DNA of 64,000 bases, from contig CM120643.1 of assembly GCA_051362555.1 (NCBI GenBank), forward strand, positions 27,904,848 to 27,968,847. The letters are read 5' to 3'. This DNA comes from Lingula anatina. Its lineage: Eukaryota; Animalia; Brachiopoda. This document shows, piece by piece, positions 17,006 to 46,407 of this stretch. The notes beneath the pieces are model-generated. The model saw only the letters and a list, made by a program, of their open reading frames with translations. It had not been told where the DNA came from and searched no databases. Every line of letters begins with the position of its first letter. Positions within the stretch are counted from its first letter, which is position 1. The position numbers and the translations under genes were made by a program.

Positions 17006-17171
17006 TGTAACAACCCGGTGTCACTTTAAAATCACTACATCAAGTCACAAGCAAGGTCCAGTCACCATGCCGTATCAAGGCGGATGGTTGCAGGTATACG
17101 GGTGAAGCACAACGTTAAAAATGTTGATACAGCTGTGTGTTTAATCTTACCATGTAATAAGCGTCTCTTCT

Positions 17172-20100
17172 TTACCCGCCGAATTCAGGGTTTTCAGGGT
17201 TTTCGAGAATATTTCTGAGTTCGGCGTTTTCAGCCGGATTATCCTCTTCTTGCTGGACTTCAGCTGATCTCTTAGTCTTCGTGCACGTGCAGTAATAGTA
17301 TCTTCCTCCATTCCAACTGAAATGTATAAAAAGTCCTGACTCTTCTAACGCATATCCCACCTACATTCCATTTGAATTTTAATGAAACGTAATTAAGCGA
17401 CGCGTTTCACCCAAAACTGGTGTAAACTAGAAATGCTAAATACTAACTAGTATCTTGAAATAAAGAAGATTGCATTTTTCTATCCAAAATTGAAGACAAT
17501 TTGGTGTTATACCCCCGTCACACTAGAGGCGGAATAAACAAGAATGCCGTCGGAAAGACAATTCTGCGTGCGTTCCTGGATATTCCAAGAGCATTCTAAA
17601 ATTTCCGAGTGCATTCCAAATATTTGTATCCATTCTTGTGGCCTGCCCGAATGTTTTGCTAATGTTAAAAAAATTCGAAGTGCATTCCAAGTGGAAAATT
17701 AACGCATGGCATTTGAATAGTATTCTAACTGCACTATGACTGCATTCTTAATATTCTCACGGCATTCCGACAGCATTCGAAACATTCTGATCACATTCGA
17801 GGAAGAACCTCAAGACACTTCAAATCCTGCTAGAATGAGCCAGAATGCAACTCGAATGCATCTCGATCCTATTTCAGCCAGCAATCGAACTACACTCGTA
17901 CGGCATTAGAAGTGTATTCTAAATATTCTGACTGTATTCTGACAGCATTATAGATATTCCTAGTTTTCCAACTACATTCGAGCTGCATTTGAGAGCTAAT
18001 ACAACCGAAATGTGCACGAATCATTCCAGGCGGATTCAAGTGCATTCTGAGTATTCCAACGGCATTTTTACAAGTATTTAGGTCAATTTGAAATTTCTTC
18101 CCGAATGTAATACGAATTTTTTAAATTTAGTCATCCCGGCTGGTTCTGCTTGATTCCTGATGATTCCGAATAAGTGTGACGGGGGCTTTAATAATAATAG
18201 CAAAGCATTATTTTATGATGATAATAATTCAAATTGTCAAGACAACTCAATTCCCGTTATTATTAGTTATTAATTTTTATATCTATATCTATAGTGTCCT
18301 GGACATATGATATACATACAACATTGGTCAAAAAGGTTTTCCCACCTTCAGTATCATGTGCTTTTACTTATAAATGATCACATCACAGGTGAAGATTGTT
18401 ATAAATAGTGATTTTCATTACAGATACTATAACATGATAAGTGATACAGAAAATACAAACTATCGGTGAAGATATCAACATTTAATACCATTTATTCACA
18501 TTTATTACATGAACCCCCTCACATCCGACGTTTCACTGTGATTTTCACAGAGGTAAAGAAATGTCCATTAAATTGAAATGACACCAAATGTCACCAAATT
18601 TACACACATTTAGCATTAGGGTGTGCTCGTTAATGGCTCCTTGTCTAATAGCGTTTGTGTTTACCGCGTACTGTAATTACTTCCTGTAGGTGGCGTGGCC
18701 TGCCTTCAACAGGGGTAACAATTCTGTTATATGGGATATTGTCCCATTCTTCCTAAAGAGCTTGGGGGAGTTGGTCCAGATTACTAGGAATTTGGTCTTA
18801 ATTTCCTTTCCATTGCACATTTCAATTCATGCCACAGATGTTTAGTAAGGTTAATAACATGGCTCAAAGGTGGTTGCTCTATCCTCTGAACATTGGATTT
18901 CTGCAACAAATCACTCAGCAGACGAGAGTAGTGAGCACGTGCATTTCCACAATGAAATCTGGTAGTTTTGGGGTAACTGAACCTAACATTCTCAACTGAT
19001 ACCTCATTCCATCTGCAAGAGGGGACTTCGGGGGTGATCCAGGCTTCATCATGACAGCACACTTGCACACAGTTCTCATGTGGTGAGTGATTTGTTGCAG
19101 AAACCCAATGTTCTGAGACTGGAGAAACCATCTTTGAATCCTGATAATAAACCTACTGAGAACCCGTGGCATGAATTAAAGTGTGCAATCCAGAGGAGAA
19201 CCAAACCCCAACTGGTCCTGACCAATTCCGCCAAGCTTTTTTAGGAAACATGAGGCAAAATCCCACAAAACAGAATTGTTACCCCTGTTGAAGGAGCAAA
19301 TTACAGTCCGCGGTAGCCACACACGCTAATTAACCTTTTTCATCTTTTGCGGAAATACGAAGTGCGCATGACAGGAACTGCGCGCCACAGGGGTCATGGT
19401 AGTCCTCTGCTGTTTGCAGCATGGCAATGCTAGGTGTAGATGATGTACAAGGTGCGCATATAAAAAGGTCGTATGAAGCGAGCATTGCTTTCTGTCAAAC
19501 TAAAAAGGTGGCTGAAGCACAGAAATGCGTAAACTGTAGGCAAGAAACAGCTATAGCTATTTGGGCGGAGAATCAAGCAATTAAATGTTTTCTTGCTCAG
19601 TTTAAATACGATGCGCTGTACAACAAGACTTCACCTAAGCGTCCGAGCCTTGGCTGCACTTTCAATAGTGATGACGAACTAAAGCTTCAGAGTTCTTTTG
19701 AATGCTTCTGATAATAAAGATATGCGAAAGAGACTCGTTATTTTTTTATATATAAAATCAAAATAGCCAGTAGACTCGTACACAGCTTTCAAGAGTGTGG
19801 ACAGGTGCGTAGGCCCACATGTACGTCTTCACAATATTACATGTATATATGCAAGCTGTGGCGATATCACCTCATTTACCGGCAGTGTCAATTCTTTACG
19901 ATTTTTATGTCTTGTTTGAAGGATGCCTTAAGAGATTTTTGAAGTGATAAAATGAAAAGATTCCCTGCATTGTTTGACTCATACATACTGTGTATACAGG
20001 TAAAACTAACACGCAGATCGTTCGTCGGTGAACTGATTAAATCGTTTGGTACCTGATAAGGCATCAGGTGTTACTTGTTCAATTGTTCGGTAAGGGGGCG

Positions 20101-23100
20101 GCCACAACTACAACATTTCCTCTGTAATTAAAATCTTCTAATTTTAAGTGTTAAATAGGTGAGACAGGATATCTCGAGTCTTTCCCAGAAGATAATTGAA
20201 GTTTTCCGTGTCTTACTCCAGTATATGTAAAAAAATTATGACAGGTAAAACATGTCAGACTTTCGGTCTGACAAGTATGAAAATTTTGTCAAACTGAAAC
20301 AAAACCGTCAGGCAAAAACAAAATTATAGCAAGAGGCCAAATTATTTGATTTTTAAATGTTTTCAAGTATTTTAATCGTTTTTAATCAGAGACAATAAAA
20401 TCATTCAAATAAAGTGTTTTCCACACATTTCATACTTTTCAACTATCCAAGACAGTTAAATATATGTAGGCCTACTTTAATACTAAGCATACATTTATTT
20501 GTTTTACTTTACAAATACGTTGTTAGATTATTTTTATTATCCATTTTGTCATTACCATACATGTATTATATATATGTACGTGTAGCTTACAGAAAGGCTT
20601 TTCTGCATTTTTTGTAAATATATGCCCATTGAATTTTCCAATTCTCTTGTCATTGAGTTCAGAAATAAATAACTTTATTTTGTCGATAACGCGTTCAACA
20701 AGAGCCGATGTACTTTCTTCTTCGTATGTCTCTGTTGATCTTGATAATATGAGCCCCGTTTGTACAAATCAGTAATACGTAAACGGGACTGGATACATAA
20801 TAATAAAAATTTTATTAACGTCCCACTTGAAAAAAAAAAAAGAGAACCCACCCTACTAAGGGTAATGAGAGACTTAAACCTGTGATAGGCCATTTAAAAT
20901 GATCACTTATCAATAAAACACACAAAAAGGATATTACATACAAAACTTTTCAAACCTTCTCTTTGTTGTTACACAAAAAGTCGTGAAAGGTCTTGAATTT
21001 TTTGTAAGTAGAATCCCCGTGTAAAACTTCACAGCTTTTACTTTTTGTTTCCATAATCTCGTGCTTGAAGTCTTTTCTTTATTTTTAGGCCCCGGCCTAT
21101 TCTTCAATTTTTTCTTCTGATCTTTATAATATTTTTTTCTCGCATTGTTTACCCCCGAGTTCTTTTGCCGATAGTTCGTTATATATCTGTTGATTAACTA
21201 AGCATTTCTGTTTTTTATTAAAGCATCGTTGATCTTCTAATATAATAGTTTTCCTTCCCGCCTTCGAAATGTTCAGCGCAAACGCGGTGCCTTGCTTTTG
21301 ATCCAAACATGCTATATATTCCTTTCTTTCTACCATAATTTTCATTCTTACGGGTTTGTTGGGAACTTATCAAACCTCATGTGTCGATCTCGCTTACTGT
21401 TATTGTAGCAGCGGGACAAAAAGCACGTAAACCCAGCCATGGTTTTTAGGACCGCTGTAAGTGTTTCGATGTATCAGGGCTCCCCTACCCACAATGCAAT
21501 TTCCATTTCCGGAAAAGATGAAAAAGGTCAATAGACACGTGACCTTTAACGAGCACACCCTAATACTACATGTCTGTAAATTTGGTGACTTTTGGTGGTG
21601 TCTTTTCAATTTAATGGGCACTTTTTTACCTCTATGGAAATGACAGTGGAACATCGGATGTGAGGGGGTACATGTAATAAATGTGAATAAATGGTATTAA
21701 ATATACATATCTTAACCGATACTTAGTATTTTCTGTACCAATAATCATGTTAGTTATGGTATCTGTAATGAAAGTCACCATTCATAGCAATTAGCACCTG
21801 TGGTGTGATCATTTATAAATAAAAGCACATGAAACTGGGGGTGGGACAACCTTTTTGACCTATGTTGTATATTAGATACTAACGGTATGTTGTAATAGCC
21901 ACTGTAAGTCGGGCCGCAATCTTTCCTACACCCGCCTTTGCAAGCACAACCGAAAATGTTACACTTTCCGTATCCGCAGTATGGAGTTGTCTGAAACACC
22001 AAAGACCTTAAATACCAATATGATTCCTAAGACGTACCGGTACACAGGTTGGCTAAGGTTTGACATTGATGGCAGTTCTAGGAATGGAAGTACGGGTCCC
22101 ATATGATAAGTACAGGTTAAGCATCGGTTACAACCGGCCGTACGGGCTCTTACGCGCTGTTTGCATCTAAAATTTGCGCAGAATTTCACGTCCCACGCAA
22201 GTCCTTCTTACGCAATTTCGAGTTAGCAGACAGCCCGTAAGCACGTAAAGAAGATGTTGGACATGTCCAAAGGATTCTAGGAATAGCCTGCGAACAGTGA
22301 GGCCGCAAGCGTAACTTGCTCCCCTCGAAAGGAGTTAGCAAGAGAGATGCGCGTTTTGCAAGACGCACGTCGCAAGCAATAAAGGAGCAAGTGCCCTTTG
22401 CGTGTTGAGTAAGGCGCACGCCCTCACAACTAACGAACAAAGTCTAGAGCACACCGGGAATGTGTCGCACGTGCGTCACCCCCACGTCTGGTGTATAAAA
22501 GGCGTGCTCACGACGCACGCTCGTGTCTTTACAATGAACGTCGGCTGAGAAACGTGTTCAACAATTTTCAAAATTTTCAAATTTTTGTCAGTTAAGTTTC
22601 TAATATGTCTCCAAAAGGCAAGAAAAAAGAAGCTTGCCTAGTAGAAAAAGGGTGAAGGAAGAAGAAAGAAGAGGAGAACAGGAAGCAAAACTGACGTACG
22701 CCGTCAGTACGTCACTGCAAACGTGTGAGGCAAGTGTGAAGCAAAACTGACGCAAAAGGGCACTACTTTCGCCGTGCGTGGTATTCCCTTCGTAAGTAGT
22801 GAGTGTGTGCCACGTACAAACTCAAGAAATTAGTACAATTTCTACGGCCATCGCTCCTTGCAATTAGCGTCCCTGCTCGAAAGGACATCTCATGGCCCTT
22901 GCGACTCGCAAGGCAGACTTTCCTCTACCTCTACGACCTCCACGTATCCGCAACACCCAAAAATCGCAGGGGACGTACGATCCTGAAATTAGTGCGTCCG
23001 GTTATGACCGAGGCTTTGGGGTTAGTCGGAGTATTTGGTCTGTTTAGTATATGGGACGAATGTCACCTGTACAATGTAATGGGGAACCAACTATGGTTCC

Positions 23101-24085
23101 TAGCGAACTACCATTCACCATACACCGGTAGCTTTGACTTGGTAACGTCTCAAATGTGCATTTTAAAACCCTTTACACTGGGCGGCGTCCTTTCTGCGTT
23201 CTGTGTGCGACCATGAAACTGGCATCGTTGTGGTCGTGAAAAGGTTTGCAATATGAATGCTCAATGATCAGTCTCTTGTCGGTACGTAAAGTATTATTAT
23301 TTTTTTAAGCGGTACTACGGGACGCAGAAAGGACGCCGTCCAGTGTAAAAGGCGCTTTACTAACGATGACTAAACTAAAAATCTGTTCAAAGTGATATTC
23401 AAAGTAATGCCGATATAGTTATTTGATGGTGAAAAGACAGATTTCAGACACCAAATTAGTGGGCATAAATTTTACCAAACACTGTATGCTTACAGCAACC
23501 AAGTTAACGATGGAGAGTGAGTGCGTTGAAATAGTCACAAAGTTTAAGCTAGTGGTTGTTGCTTTAACTTAAGTGTGCCGAATACGAACAATCTTCTCAT
23601 CCTCTGATACCTCTAAAAATAGCATATAAAATTAAAGTAAAGGGGATGGAATAATTTTTAAGAGACAACTAGCGGACCGACCCTGTCAGAGGGTGCAATC
23701 TTAGCCGACTAGACGACAAGGGGCCATCCCCTGGGAAAATATGTCTCAATTAACGTTCACTTACGGTTCTCAGTCTGTTCTAGAACATTTGGTGTATTTT
23801 TGTACAGTTCCAATGAATGTAACAGTTCGAGAAGTGTTTTGGGAAGTCCTTCAGAATGTCCTTGAACAGATTAAGAACATTTTTCATTATAATCTAGGAC
23901 AGATTGAGAACCGTAAGTGACCGTTAAGTGAGACAATTTTTCGCAGGGGATGAACTTATGCTTACCTCTGTACAGTCCGCACACCAGCCGCGCTCCACCG
24001 ATTTACAGCACACTGCCTGGGTTTCTTTAACCACGGTCACTGTCACCATGGCAACGGCAAGTAAGGTGACGAGATAGCCAGCCAT
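17172..24085 (-). CDS. Mytimycin/Diedel-like 12-Cys prepropeptide, copy A (123 aa)
   Basis: Exons 24085-23966, 21990-21884, 17316-17172 (phases 0, 2; donors GTAAGC, GTTAGT). Protein MAGYLVTLLAVAMVTVTVVKETQA-VCCKSVERGWCADCTETTPYCGYGKCNIFGCACKGGCRKDCGPTYSGYYNIPWNGGRYYYCTCTKT-KR-SAEVQQEEDNPAENAELRNILENPENPEFGG*; same exon junctions as copy C. Confidence 0.9.
17510..18187. mobile_element. PIF/Harbinger-type non-autonomous element in intron 2 of copy A
   Basis: TIR (TA/AG)CCCCCGTCACACT, TSD TTA, empty site near 42426; same family as 33641-41719 in opposite orientation. Confidence 0.8.
18319..21867. mobile_element. Foldback (fully palindromic) Tc1/mariner-derived element, interrupted by a nested insertion
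   Basis: TA TSD, TIR CAACAT(T/A)GGTCAAAAAGGTT; left arm 18319-~18960 is the inverse of ~19050-19330 plus ~21530-21867; both arms carry degraded transposase C-termini (INLTKHLWHELK; NPDNKPTENPWHELK, cf. SPDLNPIENLW). Confidence 0.8.
19331..21530. mobile_element. Degenerate ISL2EU/Harbinger-type transposon with THAP-domain transposase relic
   Basis: TIR ACCTTTTTCATCTTTT / AAAAGATGAAAAAGGT; minus strand from ATG 21440 reads MAGFTCFLSRCYNNSKRD..FP...W and, after a frameshift, HRVCAEHFEGGK (THAP), then VKFYTG and KFLLLCIQSRLRITDL (HTH-like); convergent ORF remnant 19421-19711. Confidence 0.7.
22120..23015. mobile_element. Harbinger-like non-autonomous element in intron 1 of copy A
   Basis: TIR AGCATCGGTTACAACCGG / CCGGTTATGACCGAGGCT; absent from copies B and C. 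Confidence 0.65.
23165..23358. mobile_element. MITE shared by all three peptide-gene copies (also ~27932-28150 and ~45573-45795)
   Basis: Inverted ends CTTTACACTGG(G/A)CGGCGTCCTT / AAGGACGCCGTCCAGTGTAAA. Confidence 0.7.
23728..23949. mobile_element. CACTA/EnSpm-type MITE (CCC..GGG termini, 2-bp TSD AT), next to the copy A exon donor
   Basis: ~55-bp inverted ends CCCCTGGGAAAATATGTCTCA... / ...TGAGACAATTTTTCGCAGGGG; empty site GTCCATGA in copies B and C. Confidence 0.75.
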
Positions 24086-24556: not shown

Positions 24557-24665
24557 CGGTGAATAAATCTTCAGAATGTCGAGAGTGGAGCTGAGAAAAC
24601 TGCTGAACACAAGTCTACCGTACGGAGAAAGTGAGACGACTGGTACTCCGTAAGCTCTTATATAA
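24557..24665 (-). promoter_or_regulatory. TATA box, initiator and non-coding exon 1 of peptide gene copy A
   Basis: TATATAA at ~24659-24665, TCACTT initiator-like motif ~30 nt downstream, donor CCG|GTAAGT after 24557 (conserved at 29325 and 46988), acceptor tttcag before 24088. Confidence 0.6.
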
Positions 24666-27150: not shown

Positions 27151-28629
27151 CACTACCCAATTAAATCATTGCATAATACACAATACAGCAGTGCAATAGA
27201 CATGGTAGTCAGTTCATTAGTAGCTACACACCTGATTACACACTTCTTCATTCACATATTTTATATGAGATCGGATTTCTTTGAAAAAAGAACGCATTTT
27301 TACCAAGGCATACCTTCGAAACTAAAATATTCCATATTAAATGTCAAGTCTATAAATATCTTACTTGATAGACTAACGCAACTTTAAATGCTTGTTGCTA
27401 GGGTAATATGCTACCTAGCAACTGTGGCTAAGGTTAATTTGGGTTTTAATTGCCTTAAAATAGTCTAGAGTGATAGTACTGATGCCCTGAAATATAGTTA
27501 TTAGCATTTCTTAACCATTTAAACTGGACAAGAAAGGTCTAATTAGTTTGTTACTAAGGAAATTCACTTCCATAGCAACGGTTGCTAAGCAAAGCTTTGA
27601 AATTTTGGGCACTGCCTTGAAAATGATCAGCATAGTCCAAAGAACATTTGTGCCAAGTTTCATGCTTTTTCCACATTTTGAGCAATTTGGCCAATATATA
27701 GCACCAGTCACCCAGACTAATATACAGGTACACATGAATGGTGAATGGCAGTACGGGTTCCCACATGATTCGCACAGGTGGGGCGCTGAAGTAAGTGTCT
27801 GGCTTTTAGTTTCAAGTTCCGTTTTTCAAAAACGAACCTGGCAACCAGAAACTAGTGTCGTTTTTCAAGCGGACTACCATTCACCTCATACCGGTAGCTT
27901 TGACTTGGTAACGTTTCAAATGTGTATTTTAAAATCCTTTACACTGGACGGCGTCCTTACTGCGTTCTGGGTGCGCCCATGAAACTGGCATCGTTGTGGT
28001 CTTGAAAAGGAGGCACAAACATCGCTTTGGTTGCAAAATTAGTGTTCAATGATTGGCCTCTTGTGGGCACGTAAAGTGTTATTGTTTTTTTCTCTCAAAC
28101 AAGGCGGTACTACGGGACGCAGAAAGGACGCCGTCCAGTGTAAAGGGGGTATTACTAACGATGACTAAACAAAAATCTGTTCAAAGTGATATTCAAAGTA
28201 ATGCCGATATTGTTATTTGATGGTGAAAAGACAGATTTCAAACACAAAATCAATGGGCACAAATTTTACCACTGTTTGCTTACAATAACCACGTTAGCGG
28301 TGGAAGGTGAGTGCGTTGAAATAGTCACAAAGTTTAAAGGGATAATAACTCTTCGAATGAGATCTATATTTCACAATTAAAACATCGTAAACAACTCATA
28401 GAAATAAAATATATTCTGTTTTACCACAAAAACGGCAGTTATAGATATTATTCTGACATCTGAGCTTGTCATCAGACCACGTGACCTCCACAGATGGCTA
28501 TACTCTGAAAACATCTCTTAAGACATTATAACATAAAACCAAAGAAAAAAAAAACACAGGGACTAACTTTGAATGTAGAAATAGATCTTGGACGACTAGA
28601 CGACGAAGGGTCCATGAAATTTTTCTAAC

Positions 28630-34108: not shown

Positions 34109-35177
34109 TGTAATGAAACAAATTTTTAACAATCGTTATCAAAGTAATTCCTATCATTATGGGCCATAAAGACCCCCATGGGAGCGTCCGGTAAATATTT
34201 GGGCGTTTGTAACAATTGATTGATTCATGTGACTGGAACCATTACCCTCGTCAGCACTGTGGCCAATAATTCTGGCGAGTTACACAACATGAGCAGGACG
34301 ACCTTGCGGAACAGAAGTAACGTTCTGGTGCTAACAACGTCTTTACGAGCTTACCTATACCCCTTCCCCTTTCATAGGTGAGAACGATAAAATTATCTCC
34401 TTACACAGAGCCCACCTCACGCTGGGTGAAGATACCACGGAAGAGACACAGAGGATACTACTCGTTCGAGGTACCGATTGAGGGAGTTTCTACTCCCTCT
34501 GGCAGGTTCACTGGGGCGGTTGGTCGAATCTGATGGGACAAGGCTACGCTCGAGGCTCCGATTGAGAAAGTTTCTACTTTCTCTGGCAGGTTCACTGGGG
34601 CGGTTGATTGTTGGTTAGTTAGAAAGAGTGATACGTTGGCAGGAGTACCAACGACAGGGAAAATCTCCGTCAGATTCTCCCGACAGGCTTTGCGTAGCAA
34701 CGAAGGCCTGAGTTACGTTGGCTGGGGCACCAACGACGAGGGAAATATCTCCCGTGTAGAGTAGGCAGACCTTAGGCAGGAGGTCGATTAGGACAAGCGA
34801 TACGTTGGCTGGGGGCACCAACGTTAAGGGATATCTCAGTCAGATTATCCCGACAGGGTCAGCGTAGCTACGGGACCCTAGGTTACCGTCGGCAGGAATA
34901 ATTCCGAAGTGAAGCCCACCAGTACCAGTACGATGTTAACCGATGCCTACACCTCCTAGGATTATTGACTTTACCTAGTAGCACCCTGGATTATGCATTT
35001 ATATTAAACTCTTCATCAGTATCATTTGAATTATATCTGGACACATTGAACTTTTTCTTTTATTGCCTCCTTACAAACTTCGTTGGATTTAAATAAAACT
35101 GTTTATTGACAAAAAGAACTGTTTCTTGGGATTGAACTTTTATTAGCACGCTACCTTTAGACTCAAAAACCGCTACA
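34109..35177 (+). repeat. 5' LTR (1069 bp)
   Basis: TGTAATGAAAC...CCGCTACA; no difference from the 3' LTR seen by eye. Confidence 0.97.
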
Positions 35178-35181
35178 AATT

Positions 35182-35201
35182 TGGTGGCAGCGGTGGGATT
35201 C
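35182..35201 (+). other. Primer-binding site complementary to the tRNA-Leu 3' end
   Basis: TGGTGGCAGCGGTGGGATTC is the reverse complement of GAATCCCACCGCTGCCA-CCA, the 3' end of metazoan tRNA-Leu(AAG/TAG). Confidence 0.85.
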
Positions 35202-35227
35202 AAAAGTTGTCACGTCCTCTAAGAATT

Positions 35228-36487
35228 ATGGCAGATGAAACTAGGATATACGACCACTCAAGACAATGGGACAGTGCTTTTGGGAGTTGTAATCCATGTT
35301 TGAGCCCGGTGTTGGATGATACTCCGCTCTTTGCAGACCCGAGGAGAAGACTGGAGTTTGAAACTCCCTGCAACACTAATCCCTTTATTACTGTTAACAC
35401 CAATCCATTCCTGGACGACGATCATTTCATCAACCCCAACCTGTTTGTGAACCAGGAGGCAGGCCGAACGATTGGATGGGAGAGGGTACCGTCTACACTT
35501 AGAGCCAAACCTGAGTATGTGTCAGAACAATTTCCTAACCCCTTTTATCCCATGCCGACCAGTATGCAGACCCGTGTCAAGGAAAAAGCAGGCCCGTCTA
35601 TTAAGCTAGGCACGTTTGATGGAAAATCTTCATGGGATGATTATAAAGCTCAATTTGACATTTGTGCCATGGTGTATCAGTGGAGTAATGAAGAGAAAAC
35701 GGGCCATTTGGCAACCAACCTACGAGGAGATGCGGCGCAAGTATTGGGCGATCTCCCACCAGAACACCGCTTTAACTACGACCTATTGACAACAGCACTA
35801 GAGAGGAGATTCAGCCCCAAAAACAGAACCGAATTTTACAGGGTGCAAGCAAGGATGAGGAAAAGGAGTCCCAAAGAAACCCTTAGTGAGTTAGCCCAGG
35901 CAATAAGGCGTTTAGTTAGCCTGGGATGGACCAATGAAACTGCTGAAGTGAAGGACACTTTTATGCGAGAGTATTTTCTAGACGCGTTAGATGATACCCG
36001 TTTGAGATTGGATGTTATGCGATATCGGCCTAGAACCATTGATGATTGTGAATCGCTAGCTATTGAATTGGAAGCTTGCCAAGATGCCGAGACTGCAAGA
36101 GGGCGGAGATTAAATTTGGTACGTTCTGCTGCTGCAATTACCCCTTCTGACGAATCTCACCCGACGGGCAAGGTGTTGGATGATGTAACTCGTTCCTTGG
36201 AAAAGATCTCATCCAAAGTGGATTTATTAGAAGCTCAAATGTTGCGAACCAAACAAGTGCCACCACCCTCTAGGACCGTGCAGTGTTTTAAATGTGGTAG
36301 GAGGGGACATTTTGCTCGAGAATGTCAAGTACTGAATGTAAAACCAGTCACTCCACCCCGTAGGAATGTCCAGTGCTTTAACTGTGGAGGATTTGGACAT
36401 GTGGCCAGAAATTGTGTACCAGTAAAAGTTGGACCCCCACCAGCACCTAGAAGAGCAGAGGCAGTCAGTGCGAATCAGTTAAACTAG
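35228..36487 (+). CDS. gag: Gag with two CCHC zinc knuckles
   Basis: First ATG 35228; FDGKSSWDDY capsid-like region; CFKCGRRGHFAREC and CFNCGGFGHVARNC. Confidence 0.95.
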   Translation: MADETRIYDHSRQWDSAFGSCNPCLSPVLDDTPLFADPRRRLEFETPCNTNPFITVNTNPFLDDDHFINPNLFVNQEAGRTIGWERVPSTLRAKPEYVSEQFPNPFYPMPTSMQTRVKEKAGPSIKLGTFDGKSSWDDYKAQFDICAMVYQWSNEEKTGHLATNLRGDAAQVLGDLPPEHRFNYDLLTTALERRFSPKNRTEFYRVQARMRKRSPKETLSELAQAIRRLVSLGWTNETAEVKDTFMREYFLDALDDTRLRLDVMRYRPRTIDDCESLAIELEACQDAETARGRRLNLVRSAAAITPSDESHPTGKVLDDVTRSLEKISSKVDLLEAQMLRTKQVPPPSRTVQCFKCGRRGHFARECQVLNVKPVTPPRRNVQCFNCGGFGHVARNCVPVKVGPPPAPRRAEAVSANQLN

Positions 36488-39400
36488 CGGCGGTTGGAGA
36501 AGAGAGGCATCGGCCAACCGTGGAGAACAGTAAGACCTCTCGACAAGATGATTCCATATTCCTTCATGTAAGTTTGTTTGGGAGGAATTGTTCATTTTTG
36601 GTGGATACCGGATCAGATCTTACAATTATTGCAGAGCGTGTGTTTTTACAGTTTCCAAAAGGAGAAAGGCCAAGTGTTAGGCCCTCAACAAAGCAGATAC
36701 AGGGAATTACGGGTACCTTCATGGACTTGAAAGGTGAGACAACTGTCCCCATGTCTATAAATAACCACAAGTTTGATATCCCAGTCATTGTTGCCGATGT
36801 ACCTTGGGAAGGTATACTTGGAATGAACGTGTTGAGACAATTACGCTGTACAATTAATTTGCAAAAACTAACTGTGACCATTGGCGAAGGGGATAGGGAG
36901 GAAATTCCGCTGATAACTGCTGAAAGAAATGGTTATCGTTGTTGCCGTGTCTCATTCAAAGAAGATACAGTTATACCCCCAAAGTCGGAGATGGTTATTA
37001 CCGGACAGCTGCATAAATCTGGTCCCACACTCACTGAGGGTATTACAGAGTCAAGATTGAAGAATAATGTACACGCGTCAGTTGCTTATGCGTTGGTTGA
37101 TCTCCGTGGGACGTCTGTTCCCCTGCGCATCATGAATAAGGGTGAATATCCTCTTAAACTTGGACGTGGAACTGTAGCAGCTTTGATAAAACCAGACGTA
37201 GCCAGTGTCATTGGGAACGAAGGACAGGTCGACCAGGCTGATGCTGAGACTACTGACCAAAGTTTACCGGCTCATATGGAACCTCTATGGGACAAAATTA
37301 AAGTAAACCTTAACCCGACAGAGGCGGAGAAAGTAGCCAGAGTACTCCGTGAAAATAGCGATGTGTTTGCAAAGGATTCAAATGATCTTGGGAAAACTGG
37401 ACTGATAAAACATACAATAAACACTGGTAACAGTCATCCAATCCGCCAGCCAGCAAGAAGAATTCCAATACATCGGGTAAAGGAAGCAGACGATGAACTA
37501 GAGAAGATGTTGTCCCAAGGTTTGGTTGAACCTTCAAGCAGTGCCTGGGCTTCACCGATAGTGTTGGTTACCAAAAAGGACGGTTCCATCAGGTTCTGCA
37601 TAGATTACCGTCGGCTGAATGATGTTACACAGAAAGATGCATATCCACTGCCTCGTATAGATGAAACGTTAGACACCTTGTACGGCGCTAAGTGGTTCTC
37701 CACACTAGACCTCATGAGCGGCTATCATCAAGTTGAGATGAGTCCAGCAGACAAGCACAAGACGGCATTCTGCACACGTCAGGGTCTTTTCCAGTTCAAG
37801 GTTATGCCATTTGGATTATGTAATGCCCCCGCGACCTTTGAACGGCTCATGGAGTTAATCTTGGCGGGCCTCCATTGGAAAACCTGTTTAATTTACTTGG
37901 ATGATGTCATCATCTTTGGAAGTACAGTAGAGCAACACCTAGAACGTCTTCAAACCGTCCTTCAGCGCCTACGACAAGCAGGACTTAAACTCAAGCCATC
38001 TAAATGCTCCCTGTTCCAAAAAGAGGTTGAGTACCTTGGACACATAGTCTCCGAACGAGGGGTAGAAACTGACCCAAACAAGACAAGAGCAGTGGTGGAT
38101 TGGCCGACTCCAAACAATGTGTCAGATGTTAGAAGTTTCCTGGGCCTCTGTTCCTATTACCGACGGTTTGTTAGAAATTTTACCAACATCGCCAGTCCCC
38201 TACATCGTCTTACTGAGAAGGATCAGCCGTTCATTTGGGGAGAAGACCAAGTATGTGCCTTTCAGAAGCTTAAATCTGCGCTCAGCACACCCCCAGTGCT
38301 GGCATTTCCAAATGCACAAGCCCAGTTTATCTTAGACACTGATGCCAGCCACCGTGGGATTGGAGCGGTGCTTAGTCAAGTTCAGGATGGCCATGAACGA
38401 GTCATAGCGTACGCAAGCAAGTCGCTTAGTAAGCCAGAGACAAGATACTGTGTAACCAGGAAAGAACTCTTGGCAGTGGTGCATTTTGTAAAGTACTTTC
38501 GGCATTATCTTTATGGAAGACATTTTCTTATCCGCACAGACCATGGGTCATTAAGGTGGCTTATGAACTTTAAGGATCCTGAGGGGCAATGGGCCCGGTG
38601 GTTGCAGGTGTTGGGAGAGTATGACTATACCATAGAGCATCGTCCTGGAACCAAGCATGCCAATGCTGATAGTCTTAGCCGGAGGCCCTGTAATCAATGT
38701 GGAGGGCAGTGTGAAGAAGAACCGACTGTTGTTAAAGGAAAATCAATTAAATGCTGTGCTTTTACCCCAGCAAGTGACTGGGTACAACCCCTCTCACCTG
38801 AGGAAATTCTATCTCTTCAATTGAAAGACCCTGTGCTAGGGAAGTTGATTGCCTGGAAGGAAAATGATAGTCGTCCAGGTGCAGATGAAATTGCATCAGA
38901 ATGTTCTACCCTGAAGAAATTTGTGAGCCAGTGGGATCATTTGTGTTTAAAGAATGGTGTTCTATACCGTCGATGGCAAATGCATGGACACCCAGTGATA
39001 CAACTAATTGCTCCTAAACCGCTGAGAAAGGATCTTTTTCAACAAATTCATGCACACCCCACAGGTGGCCACTTGGGACTTAACCGGATGATGAAGGCTC
39101 TCAAACAACGATGCTACTGGCCGTACATGAAGGTGGACGTGAGATTATGGATAAAACAATGTCACACATGTGGAGCTACCAAAAATCCACCAAGAAGAGT
39201 AAAAGCAAAATTAGGCCAGCTTCCAGTGGGTTGCACTTTGGAACGAATTGCTATTGACATAAAAGGACCACTGCATATCACTGATAGAGGTAACCGGTAC
39301 ATTATGGTTGTTAGCGATTACTTTACCAAATGGACAGAGGCATATCCGATCCCTGACCAGGAGTCGCGCACCATAGCTGAAAAGCTTGTTGAGGAGTTTA

Positions 39401-40377
39401 TCTGCCGGTTTGGAGTTCCATATCAGATTCATACCGACCGTGGCAGGAATTTTGAGTCAAATTTGATTGCTGATGTATGCTCCCTTCTGCACATACGGAA
39501 GACAAGAACCACACCATTCAGGCCTCAGAGTGACGGACTGGTAGAGCGATTTAACCGGACTATCGGGGTGATGTTGAAAGCATTTACTTCAGAACACCAG
39601 AGAGACTGGGACGAGTATCTCCCATACCTGCTTCTAGCTTATCGTTCCACCGTGCATGAAAGCACTGATATGACACCTAACATGCTTATGTTAGGTCGAG
39701 AAGTTACTATGCCGGTCGACCTGACCCTGCCATCCACTATCGAAGAGGAAGATCAGGACTTAACCGAATATGCTTGGAAACTGAAAGAGAGGATGGTATC
39801 TTCCTTTGAAACAGCCCGCATCCATTTGAGACAGGCAGCAAAAAGGCAGAAAAAGTACTATGACCGCACGGCCCGTGAGGAGAACCATAGTCCCGGTGAC
39901 TTTGTTTGGCTTTATTGTCCCAACAGAAAGAAAGGACTGTCACCCAAGTTACAGTGTCAGTGGCAAGGCCCGTTTACAGTCACACATAGAATTAGCGACG
40001 CTGTATACAAAGTTCAGAAAGGGCCACATTCTAAGAGCCAGACAGTGCATGGCGATCGACTGAAGAAGTATTACGGCACCCAGGTCCAAGCATGGTTTCA
40101 CCCCAAGGAAGAGTTCCAAGATTCCGGCGCTGATTTTACGGTATCATCTTCACCCACCGAGGAGATCCTTGACATAGAACCAACATCTGAAGAAGACGCA
40201 GCCGTGAAAAGTACTGCAGAAGAAATTAGACTGTCGCAAAATACCGACAATGACATGTCGGTATCTTCCTCACCCCCGGAGATGCCAGTGGAAGAGGAAC
40301 TCCCGTCTAGCGAAGGTATCAGTAGACGGCCACAGCGAAGAAGAAAAACACCGCCTTGGTTGAAAGATTTTATTTAA
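36478..40377 (+). CDS. pol: Pol polyprotein (protease, RT, RNase H, integrase) in the -1 frame relative to gag
   Basis: FLVDTGS protease, YLDD RT, TDAS/TDH RNase H, HHCC plus DDE integrase, GPF motif; frame is open from 36451 and overlaps the gag end. Confidence 0.97.
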   Translation, partial: VKLAAVGEERHRPTVENSKTSRQDDSIFLHVSLFGRNCSFLVDTGSDLTIIAERVFLQFPKGERPSVRPSTKQIQGITGTFMDLKGETTVPMSINNHKFDIPVIVADVPWEGILGMNVLRQLRCTINLQKLTVTIGEGDREEIPLITAERNGYRCCRVSFKEDTVIPPKSEMVITGQLHKSGPTLTEGITESRLKNNVHASVAYALVDLRGTSVPLRIMNKGEYPLKLGRGTVAALIKPDVASVIGNEGQVDQADAETTDQSLPAHMEPLWDKIKVNLNPTEAEKVARVLRENSDVFAKDSNDLGKTGLIKHTINTGNSHPIRQPARRIPIHRVKEADDELEKMLSQGLVEPSSSAWASPIVLVTKKDGSIRFCIDYRRLNDVTQKDAYPLPRIDETLDTLYGAKWFSTLDLMSGYHQVEMSPADKHKTAFCTRQGLFQFKVMPFGLCNAPATFERLMELILAGLHWKTCLIYLDDVIIFGSTVEQHLERLQTVLQRLRQAGLKLKPSKCSLFQKEVEYLGHIVSERGVETDPNKTRAVVDWPTPNNVSDVRSFLGLCSYYRRFVRNFTNIASPLHRLTEKDQPFIWGEDQVCAFQKLKSALSTPPVLAFPNAQAQFILDTDASHRGIGAVLSQVQDGHERVIAYASKSLSKPETRYCVTRKELLAVVHFVKYFRHYLYGRHFLIRTDHGSLRWLMNFKDPEGQWARWLQVLGEYDYTIEHRPGTKHANADSLSRRPCNQCGGQCEEEPTVVKGKSIKCCAFTPASDWVQPLSPEEILSLQLKDPVLGKLIAWKENDSRPGADEIASECSTLKKFVSQWDHLCLKNGVLYRRWQMHGHPVIQLIAPKPLRKDLFQQIHAHPTGGHLGLNRMMKALKQRCYWPYMKVDVRLWIKQCHTCGATKNPPRRVKAKLGQLPVGCTLERIAIDIKGPLHITDRGNRYIMVVSDYFTKWTEAYPIPDQESRTIAEKLVEEFICRFGVPYQIHTDRGRNFESNLIADVCSLLHIRKTRTTPFRPQSDGLVERFNRTIGVMLKAFTSEHQRDWDEYLPYLLLAYRSTVHESTDMTPNMLMLGREVTMPVDLTLPSTIEEEDQDLTEYAWKLKERMVSSFETARIHLRQAAKRQKKYYDRTAREENHSPGDFVWLYCPNRKKGLSPKLQCQWQGPFTVTHRISDAVYKVQKGPHSKSQTVHGDRLKKYYGTQVQAWFHPKEEFQDSGADFTVSSSPTEEILDIEPTSEEDAAVKSTAEEIRLSQNTDNDMSVSSSPPEMPVEEELPSSEGISRRPQRRRKTPPWLKDFI

Positions 40378-40432
40378 ATTGTTAGAACTGTTTTATTTCA
40401 CTGATTTTAATGGACTCGAGGACGAGTCCTGC

Positions 40433-40445
40433 GAGAGGAGGGGGC
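40433..40445 (+). other. Polypurine tract
   Basis: GAGAGGAGGGGG immediately before the 3' LTR. Confidence 0.85.
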
Positions 40446-40447
40446 AT

Positions 40448-41516
40448 TGTAATGAAACAAATTTTTAACAATCGTTATCAAAGTAATTCCTATCATTATG
40501 GGCCATAAAGACCCCCATGGGAGCGTCCGGTAAATATTTGGGCGTTTGTAACAATTGATTGATTCATGTGACTGGAACCATTACCCTCGTCAGCACTGTG
40601 GCCAATAATTCTGGCGAGTTACACAACATGAGCAGGACGACCTTGCGGAACAGAAGTAACGTTCTGGTGCTAACAACGTCTTTACGAGCTTACCTATACC
40701 CCTTCCCCTTTCATAGGTGAGAACGATAAAATTATCTCCTTACACAGAGCCCACCTCACGCTGGGTGAAGATACCACGGAAGAGACACAGAGGATACTAC
40801 TCGTTCGAGGTACCGATTGAGGGAGTTTCTACTCCCTCTGGCAGGTTCACTGGGGCGGTTGGTCGAATCTGATGGGACAAGGCTACGCTCGAGGCTCCGA
40901 TTGAGAAAGTTTCTACTTTCTCTGGCAGGTTCACTGGGGCGGTTGATTGTTGGTTAGTTAGAAAGAGTGATACGTTGGCAGGAGTACCAACGACAGGGAA
41001 AATCTCCGTCAGATTCTCCCGACAGGCTTTGCGTAGCAACGAAGGCCTGAGTTACGTTGGCTGGGGCACCAACGACGAGGGAAATATCTCCCGTGTAGAG
41101 TAGGCAGACCTTAGGCAGGAGGTCGATTAGGACAAGCGATACGTTGGCTGGGGGCACCAACGTTAAGGGATATCTCAGTCAGATTATCCCGACAGGGTCA
41201 GCGTAGCTACGGGACCCTAGGTTACCGTCGGCAGGAATAATTCCGAAGTGAAGCCCACCAGTACCAGTACGATGTTAACCGATGCCTACACCTCCTAGGA
41301 TTATTGACTTTACCTAGTAGCACCCTGGATTATGCATTTATATTAAACTCTTCATCAGTATCATTTGAATTATATCTGGACACATTGAACTTTTTCTTTT
41401 ATTGCCTCCTTACAAACTTCGTTGGATTTAAATAAAACTGTTTATTGACAAAAAGAACTGTTTCTTGGGATTGAACTTTTATTAGCACGCTACCTTTAGA
41501 CTCAAAAACCGCTACA
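40448..41516 (+). repeat. 3' LTR (1069 bp)
   Basis: Direct repeat of 34109-35177, followed by TSD ATAC. Confidence 0.97.
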
Positions 41517-42144: not shown

Positions 42145-45100
42145 TCAGGCGTTTTCAGACGAATTTTCCTCTTCTAGCTGGTCTTCAGCTGATCTCTTAT
42201 TCTTCGGGCATATGCAGAAAGAGTATATTCGTTCAGTGAATCTGAAAAGTATAAAAGGTTCTGACTCTTTTAATGCATATTTCTCCTATATTCCATTTAA
42301 ATAATAATGAAACGTAATTTATCTACGCGTTTACCGAAAATTGGTGTAAACTACAAGTGCTAAATATTTATCTTGAAATAAAGTAGAATGCATTTTTCTA
42401 TCCAAAATTGAAGACAAATTGGTGTTTATAATATTAAAGCATTATTTTATGATGATAATAATAATTAGAGAAACACAGAGAATACACACTGCCAAAACAT
42501 CTCAATTCACATTATTATTAGTTGTTAACTAAACAATCCGTATATAGATCACCACCAAAATCTAACAGTTTCTGAAAATATCAGCAAATTCCGTCCATAT
42601 TTTTATATCATGCTGCTAACAAAAAATGAGAAAGACAGGTAATCGGAACCAAAAATAGGATCCTCTTGGTGAAGGTAAAAAAAATAGGTCTAACCCTCAA
42701 GGTCTATTTCAGGCTAGGGTAAACCACCATGAAAGGAAGTTATATCGTTATATTTCGTGGTCAGATATATAATTATGACACTTTTCTATATCTATAGTGC
42801 CTGGATATATATATATATTAGATACTAACTCATGGGTGTTATGGCCAAAGAACACTGGGCCGCAATCTTTCCTACACCCGCCGTCGCAAGCACAACCGAA
42901 AAGGTTACACTCTCCGTTTCCGCAGAATGGAGCTGCCTGAAACACCAAAGACGCTTTATAGTCTAGATGACTGGTGCAAAAATTGCTCAAAAGCTGGAAA
43001 AAGCATGAAATGTTTTATGGACTATGCTGATCATTTTCAAGCAATTTTAAAGCGTTGCTTAGCAACCGTTGCTAAGGAAGTTATTTACCTTAGTAACAAG
43101 CTAATTGGACCTTTCTTGTTCAGTTTAAATGATTTAAAAAGGCTTTTAATAATGTTTCAAGCTATCATAACTATCTCTTTAATATTTGTAGCCATTAAAA
43201 GCCTAAGTAAACCCTTGCAACAGTTGCTAGGCAGCATATTACTCTAGCAATAATTTAAGTATTTAACATTATATATTTAATAATTTATATTTATATATTT
43301 AATAATTATTAAAATTATATATATAGCTTTTTACATATTCTCCAGTTCCTTTCCATATTTTTGTTCCCATTCTACATATACTTACACGTTTCTTAATTAT
43401 TAAGATAGGTACATAAATATTGTATGCTTGCACAAACCCAAATACAAATATCTCCGGAGATCTATCAATGACCACACCTAAATTATCTTTAGCGGGGCAA
43501 ATGATGCACATCCAAACATTTTTTACATGTGAACAATCCCAAAAAACATACAGAATATTTCCGTAGCGGTACTGCAAAATTCCCAAATTCATAAGATAAA
43601 CATAAGTATTGAATAGTCTATGATTTATTCTGAATTGGATCAACTTCACTTTCGTGTGATCTGTTTCTTAAATGTTATTTCCCAAATATCAGTACTCAAG
43701 GTTTTTTTTTTAAATATGTCTGCCATTCACCTACACCTTTATCTAGTGATATTATATGGCTTTGGAGGATTTTTTGCGAAAAAAATCTGGATGGTTTGGT
43801 AACTTGTTTAATTGAGTCAATTATTTCTTGGAATGCTATGTGTAATTTCCTTCCATGGAAAGAGCCATTCAGATGGTAAGTTCTTTCGAATTCTGCATTA
43901 GCCCAGAAAGTTAGTGTTAAGGTTGATTTTTTGTTGAGTTCCTCTAGAGAGAGTGGATTTCAAATGTCATTTATAATATCATTGATATAAAAAATAGTTT
44001 TTCAATTTCTTTCAATTTTTGAGTTTTGACATAATGGTTGTGACAGGATTTCATCTGGGGTTAAATTGGGATTTTCCTGAATTTCAATCAAAGAACCAAT
44101 AATCTTTGCCAAAAGGGATTAGTAGTTGCTTTTAGTATTTTTAATCCACCTTTTGTAACTACCGATTCCTGACATTTCGCCGAGAAAAACGCTTTCCACT
44201 TACTCTTATTTTCTTTATAAAGAAGTCTTTTAAGACATGTAAAGATTAGGGCCTTAGTAAAATTTTTATTTGCGGTACCTTTTACCGTCCATTTTTGTAA
44301 TCAGACGCCATCCTTGCTCATTTTATTTTTCATCTTTTCCCATTCCTCATAAAGTTAAAAATGATATGCATATTTTAAAGTATTGAGGGAGGGGGGGGTA
44401 GGAGAATTTATACATTCACTACGTAAGATGTGAAATAATAAAGGTTTAACCACTGTTGACTTTCCAGATTTCCAAGATATTTTTTATTTTGTTCAATATT
44501 TTCTAACAAGTTTTTTCACATTGTATTTTGTCAGTTTCTATTCTCTACCAAGTAACTTAAATACACCTTCATGGTTCTATTTTAATTCTTTTTTTTAATC
44601 AATGAAGTTCAAAAGTTTCTGTTCACACCCAAAGGCCGTTAGATGCCATATCTTACTTCCACCAAGGCTGCTCTACAACAATATAAGAGTATTCTTGCGA
44701 GATGAACATATCTGAATCAGCACTACGGTGCCATGTCATCAGATACCATGTGCTCACTCTGGTTGGACTTGTGCGGAACAGTGGACCCTTGTGGACACAT
44801 TTGCCAGAAGCTATTGACCTGCCCAGAGTTGCCCCAGTGTGCATGTAGGTTTTATAAAGAGTCGTAAGGTGATAAAAGAATGGAAATGACTAACTTTGAA
44901 TTCGCACATGCTGCCTTGCGGCAATGTTTTTGATCGGATGTGTGTAAACATCACACAGTTTTTTCAACTTACTGGATTAAAAGTATGAATATCTTGCTCA
45001 AAAGTGTAGTTCTTAGCTAGTATTATAGATTTGCCTTACTTAATAGACTAACGCAGCTTTGAATGCTTGTTGCTAGGGTAATATGCTACCTAGACACTGA

Positions 45101-46407
45101 GTCTAAGTCTAGTGATAGTACTGATGCCCTGAAATATAGTTATTAGCATTACTAAACCATTTAAACTGGACAAGAAAGGTCTAATTATAGCTTGTTACTA
45201 AAGAAATTCACTTCCATAGCAACGGTTGCTAAGCAACGCTTTGAAATTTTGGGCACTGCCCTTGAAAATGATCAGCATAGTCCAAAGAACTAAGTGCCAA
45301 GTTTCATGCTTTTTCCACATTTTGAGCAATTTGGCCAATATATAGCACCAGTCAGCCAGACTAATATACAGGTACACATGAACGGTGAATGGCAGTACGG
45401 TTCCCATATGATTCGCACAGGTGGGGCGCTGAAGTAAGTGTCTGGTTTCTAGTTTCAAGTTCCGTTTTTCAAAAACGAACCTGGCAACCAGAAACTAGTG
45501 TCGTTTTTCAAGCGGACTACCATTCACCTCACACCGGTAGCTTTGACTTGGTAACGTCTCAAATGTGTATTTTAAAATCCTTTACACTGGGCGGCGTCCT
45601 TACTGCGTTCTGTGTGCAACCATGAAACTGGCATCGTTGTGGTCGTAAAAAGGAGGCACAAACATCGCTTTGGTTGCAAAATTAATGTTCAATGATTGGC
45701 CTCTTGTGGGCACGTAAAGTGTTATTGTTTTTTTCTCTCAAACAAGGCGGTACTACGGGACTCAGAAAGGACGCCGTCCAGTGTTAAAAGGGGCTTAATT
45801 AACGATGACTAAACTAAAAATCTGTTCAAAGTGATATTCAAAGTAATGCCGATATAGTTATTTGATGGTGAAAAGACAGATTTCAAACACAAAATCAATG
45901 GGCATAAATTTTACCACTGTATGCTTACAATAACCACGTTAGCGGTGGAAGGTGAGTGCGTTGAAAAAATCACAAAGTTTAAAGGGATAATAACTCTTCG
46001 TATGAAATCTATATTTCACAATTAAAACATCGTAAACAACTCATAGAAATAAAATATATTCTGTTTTACTACAAAAACGGCAGTTATAGATATTATTCTG
46101 ACATCTGAGCTTGTCATCAGACCACGTGACCTCCACATATGGCTATACACTGAAACCATCTCTTAAGAGATTATAACATAAAACCAAACTTTTAAGAAAA
46201 AAAAAACAAAAAAACAAGGACTATCTTTGAATGTAGAAATGGATCTTGGACGACTAGACGACAAAAGGTCCATGAATTTTTTCTAACCTTTGTACAGTCC
46301 GAACACCAGCCGATCTCAACCGCTTTACAGCACACTGCCTGGGTTTCTTTAACCACAGTCACTGTCACCATGGCAACGGCAAGTAAGGTGACGAAATAGC
46401 CAGCCAT
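42145..46407 (-). CDS. Mytimycin/Diedel-like 12-Cys prepropeptide, copy C (107 aa)
   Basis: Exons 46407-46288, 42936-42830, 42241-42145 (phases 0, 2). Protein MAGYFVTLLAVAMVTVTVVKETQA-VCCKAVEIGWCSDCTKAAPFCGNGECNLFGCACDGGCRKDCGPVFFGHNTHEFTERIYSFCICPKN-KR-SAEDQLEEENSSENA*. Confidence 0.9.
42959..45363. mobile_element. Long-TIR element (TAG..CTA termini, Academ-like) in intron 1 of copy C
   Basis: TAGTCTAGATGACTGGTGC / GCACCAGTCAGCCAGACTA with ~290-bp inverted arms (42959-43250 vs 45060-45363); only the right arm survives in copy B (27350-27719). Confidence 0.6.
43260..44560 (-). pseudogene. Degraded L1/Tx1-type LINE 3' fragment
   Basis: ORF 43299-43649 IQFRINHRL...YVFWDCSHVKNVW resembles the zf-RVT end of L1/Tx1 ORF2; A-rich minus strand with many stops. 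Confidence 0.6.

What the first reader, a model, noticed from the sequence alone, without database searches (positions are those of the whole stretch)
17172..46407. Tandem cluster of 12-Cys defence-peptide precursors bridging mussel mytimycins and insect/viral Diedel
Seen: splicing short exons that the ORF track misses gives two complete genes (A 24085-17172, C 46407-42145) and a partial third. Each encodes a 24-aa signal peptide, a 66-aa mature region with 12 conserved Cys, a KR site and an acidic pro-tail. Knowledge (from memory): Mytilus antifungal mytimycin has the pattern CC-x7-CWDCT..TPYCGY..CNIFGC.C with 12 Cys and an EF-hand-bearing C-terminal extension, and the Drosophila/viral immune modulator Diedel carries CGxGxCNIFGCNCDGGC. 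Copy A matches the mytimycin N-terminal half closely (CADCTETTPYCGYGKCNIFGC), while copy C has an almost perfect Diedel motif (CGNGECNLFGCACDGGC). Neither has an EF-hand. Inference: an apparently undescribed family of secreted antifungal or immunomodulatory peptides linking the two families, likely missed by automated annotation.
Basis: partly seen in the sequence, partly recalled or inferred. Interest (0 to 1): 0.9.

Follow-up and report, generated by a model that had tools for sequence, protein, structure and literature searches.

The report
Brachiopod peptides unite mytimycin and Diedel
This stretch, likely from a Lingula-type lamp shell, holds two intact and one truncated copy of a gene for a small 12-cysteine peptide that is predicted to be secreted and is likely a defence peptide, and its relatives show that the mussel antifungal peptide mytimycin and the fly immune protein Diedel share one cysteine core found across animals and fungi.

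Summary
Genes A and C splice GT/AG into intact precursors with 12 identically spaced cysteines, a KR site and an acidic tail; B is one orphan coding exon. Exon 2 of both passes the Pfam Diedel cut-off. The family is not unannotated: 12 RefSeq Lingula anatina proteins are relatives, four named 'Diedel(-like)' and four carrying EF-hands, although none is identical to A or C. The array equals the type II mytimycin array. A profile of EF-hand-less relatives reaches both a Mytilus mytimycin (E 4e-12) and the Diedel crystal structure (E 2e-10), whereas mytimycin alone misses Diedel. The 'A mytimycin-like, C Diedel-like' split is wrong: they are sisters, and published mytimycins already carry the motif. 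Mature regions show dN/dS about 2.9. They lack Diedel's SD1 insert and RGD. Best reading: processed, diversifying, mytimycin-like defence peptides (0.55). Expression was not shown: no junction among the listed joints for A, and C untested. No paper joining mytimycin and Diedel was found in the held library.

The parts
24557..24640 (-). Copy A: putative non-coding first exon (5' end approximate), donor GT at 24556
   Evidence: Block conserved in B and C at 87-95%; inferred, no reads in this bin
23966..24085 (-). Copy A coding exon 1: signal peptide and mature residues 1-16 (CC-x7-C-x2-C)
   Evidence: AG acceptor 3 nt before the ATG
21884..21990 (-). Copy A coding exon 2: Diedel SD2 core motif
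   Evidence: Pfam PF13164 28.7 bits; PDB 3zzo E 1.1e-4
17172..17316 (-). Copy A coding exon 3: variable hairpin half, CxC, KR, 31-aa acidic tail, stop
29325..29400 (-). Copy B putative non-coding first exon
   Evidence: 87% to the A block; inferred
28630..28749 (-). Copy B: orphan coding exon 1, intact frame and donor; exons 2-3 absent
27360..31608 (.). Segmental duplicate of the 5' part of gene C (45035-49345), 92% identical, truncated inside intron 1
46988..47051 (-). Copy C putative non-coding first exon
   Evidence: 95% to the A block; inferred
46288..46407 (-). Copy C coding exon 1
42830..42936 (-). Copy C coding exon 2: Diedel SD2 core motif
   Evidence: Pfam PF13164 26.5 bits; PDB 3zzo E 1.9e-5
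42145..42241 (-). Copy C coding exon 3: CxC, KR, 15-aa acidic tail (shortened relative to A by a deletion), stop
34109..41516 (+). Full-length Ty3/gypsy LTR retrotransposon inserted in the 3' flank of copy C (not part of the peptide genes)
   Evidence: gag and pol ORFs; LTRs 1069 of 1069 identical, 4-bp target-site duplication

Best explanation
A and C are intact, tandemly duplicated genes for 12-cysteine pre-pro-peptides of the Diedel/mytimycin family, likely from a Lingula-type brachiopod, which are predicted to be secreted and cut at the KR site and likely act as mytimycin-like (probably antifungal) defence peptides. Steps: (1) shown: gene anatomy, Cys array, KR, acidic tail, family membership, excess amino-acid change. 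(2) Inferred from mytimycin precursors: the signal peptide is removed after residue 24, six disulfides form in the ER, a convertase cuts at KR, and the acidic tail is a discarded pro-piece, probably a shortened form of the EF-hand tail that paralogues keep. (3) Predicted: eight Cys (2,3,11,21,26,31,33,37) form the four-disulfide SD2 knot of Diedel, which exposes the conserved N-I/L-F hydrophobic loop, followed by a C-terminal beta-hairpin. (4) Inferred: the conserved loop binds a conserved microbial surface target while the fast-changing hairpin varies recognition; plain cationic membrane lysis is unlikely to be the whole mechanism because C is net acidic.
For: The Cys order and count equal the type II mytimycin array, with identical spacing over the first eight Cys, a dibasic site and an anionic extension (PMC8004829 Table 1 and Files S1, S4). 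L. anatina paralogues XP_013398944.1, XP_013398945.1, XP_013390178.1 and XP_013393532.1 have the complete mytimycin layout with EF-hands; one aligns with the Mytilus protein end to end (E 4e-16). Mytimycin inhibits Neurospora and Fusarium (PMC3210125 passage). A versus C: signal peptide 70 of 72 nt identical, mature region 156 of 198; mature dN 0.30, dS 0.10, ratio 2.9 (Fisher p 0.014, codon bootstrap 0.0012), while non-coding blocks are 83-92% identical. That is the usual pattern of diversifying defence peptides. AlphaFold2 of the paralogue P0004 mature region (44 of 66 residues identical to A; pLDDT 86) matches only Diedel in the PDB: Foldseek rmsd 1.2 A over 31 columns, E 0.16; VIA Z 3.0, the only Z>=2 of 48161 chains. 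The exposed Ile78-Phe79 loop is described in PMC3307722.
Against: No activity data exist for any brachiopod member. In four RNA runs with the same species label, no predicted junction was among the 15 listed joints (41 not shown). The exon 3 bin of A had summed depth 0, 0, 0.8 and 1.0, and the putative first-exon bin of A had none. C was not tested with reads. C's mature peptide is acidic (pI 6.05, charge -1.7; A pI 8.5, +3.2). dN/dS rests on one pair and 45 synonymous sites, and only the C-terminal part is significant alone (p 0.03 versus 0.14). Fold scores are weak in absolute terms and the Diedel structure predates AlphaFold2's training. The trees do not group A and C with mytimycin (AU p 0.30, neither shown nor rejected). 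The family also occurs in fungi, so it is not antifungal by definition.
Confidence: 0.55

Rival explanations
1. They are host-directed cytokines like Drosophila Diedel, dampening immune signalling or apoptosis through a host receptor bound by the SD2 loop.
For: They keep the SD2 subdomain, the most conserved part of Diedel and its proposed interaction site (PMC3307722). Insect DNA viruses carry homologues (PMC6072105, PMC8570155 passages; three viral contigs).
Against: Diedel's shown integrin-ligand function needs its RGD (PMC9116668 passages). RGD lies in the SD1 segment between CC and the third core Cys (alignment), which is 7 residues here, and neither copy has RGD. Rapid amino-acid change in the mature region fits a foreign target better than a self receptor. 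Diedel lacks the KR-plus-acidic-tail layout.
Confidence: 0.2
2. They are silent or decaying duplicates: the cluster is a dispensable locus undergoing pseudogenisation.
For: B is truncated; a very young LTR element sits in C's 3' flank; C's tail is shortened by a deletion; no retrieved database protein is identical to A or C; reads barely touch A's exons. Mussel mytimycins include unexpressed and pseudogenic clusters (PMC8004829).
Against: All 12 Cys, the KR site, the frame and all splice sites survive 38 non-synonymous changes in the mature region, and dN exceeds dS rather than equalling it. The laid reads were mostly 90-95% repeat matches, from tissues not named.
Confidence: 0.12
3. They are secreted non-immune proteins (shell, mucus or pedicle matrix, or anti-predator/anti-parasite peptides), with the family's EF-hand tail tied to calcium in the secretory route.
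For: 102 of 227 held family members have an EF-loop motif. A fungal member is the top transcript of Tricholoma fruiting bodies, function unknown (PMC6980582). Diedel-like proteins occur in caterpillar setae (PMC11335235).
Against: A and C have no EF-hand. The tail lies behind a dibasic site and would be removed. Diversification is concentrated in the mature peptide.
Confidence: 0.13

Closest known systems
RefSeq Lingula anatina 'protein Diedel' / 'Diedel-like' (XP_013421533.1, XP_013386436.1, XP_013386441.1) and unnamed paralogues (XP_013421531.1, XP_013419522.1, XP_013419525.1)
   Same: Signal peptide, 12-Cys array (spacing identical to XP_013421533.1), dibasic site, short tail without EF-hand; 39-45 of 66 mature residues identical to A
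   Different: None is identical to A or C; A and C form their own pair. These are automatic names with no functional study found.
Mytimycins of Mytilida, type II array (clusters A, I, J, K; PMC8004829)
   Same: 12 Cys in the same order, identical spacing over the first eight, conserved DCT..TPYCGY..CNIFGC block, dibasic site, anionic extension, predicted C-terminal hairpin
   Different: No EF-hand in A and C; 19 residues between Cys10 and Cys11 versus about 6; host is outside Mytilida; activity untested
Drosophila Diedel (CG11501, PDB 3zzo/3zzr; Pfam PF13164)
   Same: The eight SD2 cysteines and the N-I/L-F loop; signal peptide; predicted core superposes at 1.2 A over 31 columns
   Different: No SD1 insert and no RGD; four other Cys, a C-terminal hairpin, a KR site and an acidic pro-tail instead of the SD1 helix and strand
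Fungal and arthropod Diedel-domain + EF-hand proteins (e.g. Tricholoma matsutake Trima_09940, PMC6980582)
   Same: Signal peptide plus the same Cys core
   Different: Mostly 8-10 Cys and no terminal CxC; function unknown

Membership tests
Pfam Diedel (PF13164) | Score at or above the curated cut-off of 21.3 bits | tested here: met
   Exon 2 alone: 28.7 (A) and 26.5 (C) bits. Whole precursors were not scanned; whole Lingula paralogues score 20.0-22.1, i.e. at the cut-off.
Drosophila-type Diedel cytokine | SD2 subdomain with eight Cys and the Asn-Ile-Phe loop | tested here: met
   Profile alignment to 3zzo, E 2.1e-10; fold match of the paralogue model
Drosophila-type Diedel cytokine | SD1 ferredoxin-like subdomain (residues 29-59 and 90-117) | tested here: not met
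   Only 7 residues between CC and the next Cys; no helix in the paralogue model
Drosophila-type Diedel cytokine | RGD integrin-binding motif | tested here: not met
   Absent from A and C; required in Diedel (PMC9116668)
Mytimycin | Ten backbone Cys with the conserved central block | tested here: met
   the Mytilus core scores 46 bits on a profile of 17 Lingula-type cores, 0 of 300 Cys-fixed shuffles reach it
Mytimycin | One of the five described arrays (type II: backbone plus C-terminal pair, 12 Cys) | tested here: met
   Table 1 of PMC8004829; spacing differs after Cys8
Mytimycin | Signal peptide, dibasic site, anionic C-terminal extension | tested here: met
   the signal peptide was judged from sequence and homologues, no predictor was run
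Mytimycin | EF-hand domain in the C-terminal extension | tested here: not met
   No EF-loop in A or C, no Pfam hit on A exon 3, no EF-hand exon nearby by tblastn. Present in 4 of 12 named Lingula paralogues; one published mytimycin also lacks it.
Mytimycin | Monophyly or orthology with mytilid mytimycins; shared intron positions | tested here: inconclusive
   Trees unresolved with only one Mytilus row, AU p 0.30; gene sequences in the supplement were cut at 400 characters
Mytimycin | Antifungal activity and haemocyte expression | not testable with these tools
   Needs assay; run tissues were not given

The most novel reading that the evidence does not exclude
Mytimycins are not a mussel invention but one branch of an ancient 'Diedel SD2 knot + EF-hand pro-domain' superfamily of secreted defence proteins shared by brachiopods, arthropods, fungi and algae. 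The EF-hand fusion is ancestral. Drosophila Diedel is a derived form that gained SD1 and RGD and became a cytokine. The brachiopod genes here are an EF-hand-less, positively selected antimicrobial radiation, and the Diedel crystal structure supplies the missing fold and four of the disulfides of mytimycin.
Probability: 0.5. Interest if true: 0.7.

Novelty: new member of a known kind. Interest (0 to 1): 0.5.

Why it matters
The 2021 mytimycin survey (PMC8004829) states that the structure and backbone disulfides are unsolved, that the family seems restricted to Mytilida, and that the EF-hand was likely gained from another gene. The Diedel structure paper (PMC3307722) saw Diedel only in drosophilids, aphids and insect viruses. 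The relatives of this locus contradict both range statements and show the core-plus-EF-hand layout in a brachiopod and in fungi. They also give a testable fold, a disulfide map and a candidate active loop for one of the few antifungal-specific invertebrate peptides. The locus itself is an ordinary, fast-evolving tandem cluster whose kin are already auto-annotated.

Tried and rejected
No genome is held for the window, so copy number and synteny are untested. No RNA holder was listed for the A exon 3 stretch. Reads laid on 17010-29800 were mostly repeats; no B-exon-1 to A-exon-2 joint was among those listed. The region of copy C has no read evidence either way. The spliced A and C peptides were not folded or sent to remote searches; the paralogues P0003 and P0004 stood in. 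The mytimycin model (pLDDT 80) gave no significant Foldseek hit (Diedel ranks 2 and 5 of 9, E 3.1 and 6.9) and VIA Z 2.6 to Diedel as the only Z>=2 row: weak support only. ESM Atlas gave the Diedel cluster at 0.89 for P0003, a lead only, and no usable hit for the mytimycin N-terminal part. The profile of alignment A4 against the PDB was swamped by EF-hand proteins. The first tree used 40 of 42 planned rows and 41 columns and is largely unresolved; scripts 63 and 70 stopped on errors and were rerun. Rejected: A and C as separate mytimycin-like and Diedel-like types; a hidden EF-hand exon or further complete copies in the window. Literature searches: mytimycin + Diedel 0 papers, brachiopod + Diedel 0, mytimycin-like 0. 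Diedel + EF-hand gave 3 and Diedel-like/Diedel domain/PF13164 gave 5; none of these also holds 'mytimycin'. Listings showed no title on this family in brachiopods. Not held: a 2018 Dev Comp Immunol survey of Lingula immunity (recalled), which could describe these peptides, and Lamiable 2016. Figure S1 of PMC8004829 is a picture and was not seen. Earlier scan findings were not relevant.
Full report
Observation. On the minus strand, A (24085-23966, 21990-21884, 17316-17172) and C (46407-46288, 42936-42830, 42241-42145) join through GT..AG introns into 123- and 107-residue ORFs. Each has a 24-residue hydrophobic leader, a 66-residue region with 12 Cys at identical positions, KR and an acidic tail. 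The distant third exons are well determined: only 2 of 418 (A) and 4 of 417 (C) AG sites within 8 kb give an in-frame CxC..KR. The chosen pair are 82% identical to each other with matching acceptors, and they reproduce the Cys spacing 0-7-2-6-4-4-1-3-3-19-1 of a RefSeq protein. B is an intact coding exon 1 (28749-28630) in a 4.3-kb, 92% duplicate of C's 5' end that breaks off in intron 1. A conserved upstream block ending in a donor site, and an acceptor 3 nt before each ATG, suggest a non-coding first exon (inferred). A Ty3/gypsy element with identical LTRs interrupts C's 3' flank.

Family. Exon 2 of each copy passes the Pfam Diedel cut-off and finds Drosophila Diedel as best PDB sequence hit. 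Database searches returned Lingula anatina RefSeq proteins as the nearest named kin: 12 in all, four named Diedel or Diedel-like, four with EF-hand tails. The best shares 45 of 66 mature residues with A and none is identical. The host is therefore inferred to be Lingula or a close brachiopod; this was not tested with neighbouring genes. A full HMMER pass with one Lingula protein found 166 clusters at 50% identity. A profile of 40 EF-hand-less members gave 345 hits among 691 candidates, with named members in basidiomycetes, ascomycetes, Chlorella, mites, Orchesella, Daphnia, Planococcus, Drosophila and Mytilus trossulus. Of 246 proteins held, 227 had the core by pattern, 102 of these an EF-loop motif and 23 the terminal-CxC 12-Cys array.

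The mytimycin-Diedel link. The Mytilus hit (P0247, E 4.1e-12) is a type II mytimycin by comparison with Files S1 and S4 of PMC8004829. On its own it does not reach Pfam Diedel (E 1.3) or PDB 3zzo (E 0.3). The same profile that finds it finds 3zzo at E 2.1e-10. With Cys cores only, the mytimycin scores 46 bits on a profile of 17 Lingula-type cores (12 named, 5 unnamed) and 46 bits on 202 other cores; two Drosophila cores score 48-55. No Cys-fixed shuffle (0 of 300 each) reached any of these scores, so the match is not cysteine richness. AlphaFold2 models of a Lingula paralogue (pLDDT 86) and of the mytimycin (pLDDT 80) both show a loop-rich core plus a C-terminal hairpin, and Diedel is the only Z>=2 match among 48161 chains (Z 3.0 and 2.6). 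These scores are weak, and the Diedel structure was available to AlphaFold2. The link is thus solid by sequence and consistent by fold. These genes are not a unique bridge, though. A and C are sisters (99/99), mytilid sequences such as Mphi_4 and Perpur_1 already hold the full GGC motif, and the trees leave deeper relations open.

Mechanism. Eight Cys align with the eight SD2 Cys of Diedel, whose Asn77-Ile78-Phe79 loop is exposed and was proposed as a binding site (PMC3307722). The SD1 insert that carries Diedel's functional RGD (PMC9116668) is reduced to 7 residues, and RGD is absent, which weakens the cytokine reading. The precursor layout is that of mytimycin, which inhibits Neurospora and Fusarium (PMC3210125). 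Between A and C the leader is 97% identical, non-coding blocks 83-92%, and the mature region 79%, with dN/dS 2.9 (p 0.014; bootstrap 0.0012), concentrated in residues 42-66, the predicted hairpin. I therefore read them as processed, diversifying defence peptides: conserved loop for the target, variable hairpin for specificity (0.55; secretion, processing and activity are inferred). C's net negative charge argues against simple cationic lysis.

Evidence against. Expression was not shown. In 4 of the 9 listed RNA runs, no predicted junction was among the 15 joints listed (41 not shown), A's exon 3 bin had depth 0-1 and its upstream bins none. Most laid reads were 90-95% repeat matches from unnamed tissues, so this is weak. 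C has no read evidence. The selection estimate rests on one pair.

What is known. Papers seen: PMC8004829 (text parts 1-3 of 5, passages, supplement parts 1, 7, 8 of 9); PMC3307722 (parts 1-2 of 4); passages only of PMC6072105, PMC9116668, PMC11335235, PMC6980582, PMC8570155, PMC3210125 and PMC12466427. PMC8004829 calls mytimycins probably restricted to Mytilida and unsolved in structure, and does not mention Lingula, brachiopods, Pfam or Drosophila. A fungal Diedel-domain gene is in print. No paper in the held library contains both mytimycin and Diedel, or brachiopod and Diedel. Subscription papers are not covered, and a recalled 2018 survey of Lingula immunity was not held.

Verdict. Real genes, new members of a family already auto-annotated in Lingula. 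They are members of Pfam Diedel. They work like mytimycin by layout but fail its EF-hand criterion, and they are not Drosophila-type Diedel cytokines by anatomy. The value lies in the apparently unreported unification of mytimycin with the Diedel SD2 fold and in the selection signal. Interest 0.5.

Noticed in passing
window 34109-41516 (+): Complete Ty3/gypsy element: gag 35147-36487, pol 36451-40377, LTRs 1069 of 1069 identical, 4-bp target-site duplication; inserted into another repeat, so very recent.
   Followed up: partly
window 61125-63515 (-): 796-aa open stretch, Pro/Gln/Met-rich, ending in a Kunitz/BPTI domain (Pfam E 1e-17); probably one large exon of a secreted matrix-type protein.
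   Followed up: no
window 5849-8263 (-), with ORFs at 4452-5039 and 5152-5565: 804-aa open stretch with six HYR_4C repeats (PF23237), followed by Thr-rich and Pro-rich ORFs that may be further exons.
   Followed up: no
window 11363-12162 and 14321-15108: 800-bp inverted repeat pair at 94.6% identity with internal sub-repeats, probably the ends of a DNA transposon.
   Followed up: no
window 24884, 29578, 47241 (-): A CRE-like palindrome TGACGTCA is kept upstream of all three copies; B and C also share a STAT-like TTCN4GAA site, and B has kB-like sites. Motif names are recalled; no chance control was run.
   Followed up: no
window about 17150 and 42110 (-): A donor-like site a few bases after the stop codon is conserved in A and C, possibly a 3' UTR intron or a relic junction to a lost EF-hand exon; no such exon was found by tblastn.
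   Followed up: partly
window 16808-17013 and 32978-33353: Related minisatellites downstream of A and of C, marking paralogous 3' flanks.
   Followed up: no
window about 25100-27360: Repeat-like stretch that replaces the rest of copy B; only short ORFs but 25-50-fold cross-mapping RNA depth in two runs; not identified.
   Followed up: partly
proteins P0006, P0009, P0011, P0169: Several Lingula-type paralogues end in what look like eroded EF-hand loops, suggesting repeated decay of the tail (alignment).
   Followed up: no
proteins P0044, P0061, P0202, P0122, P0128: The same Cys core is followed by other C-terminal regions in some relatives (PAN/Apple in P0044 and P0202; unidentified in the others), so it behaves as a mobile N-terminal module.
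   Followed up: no
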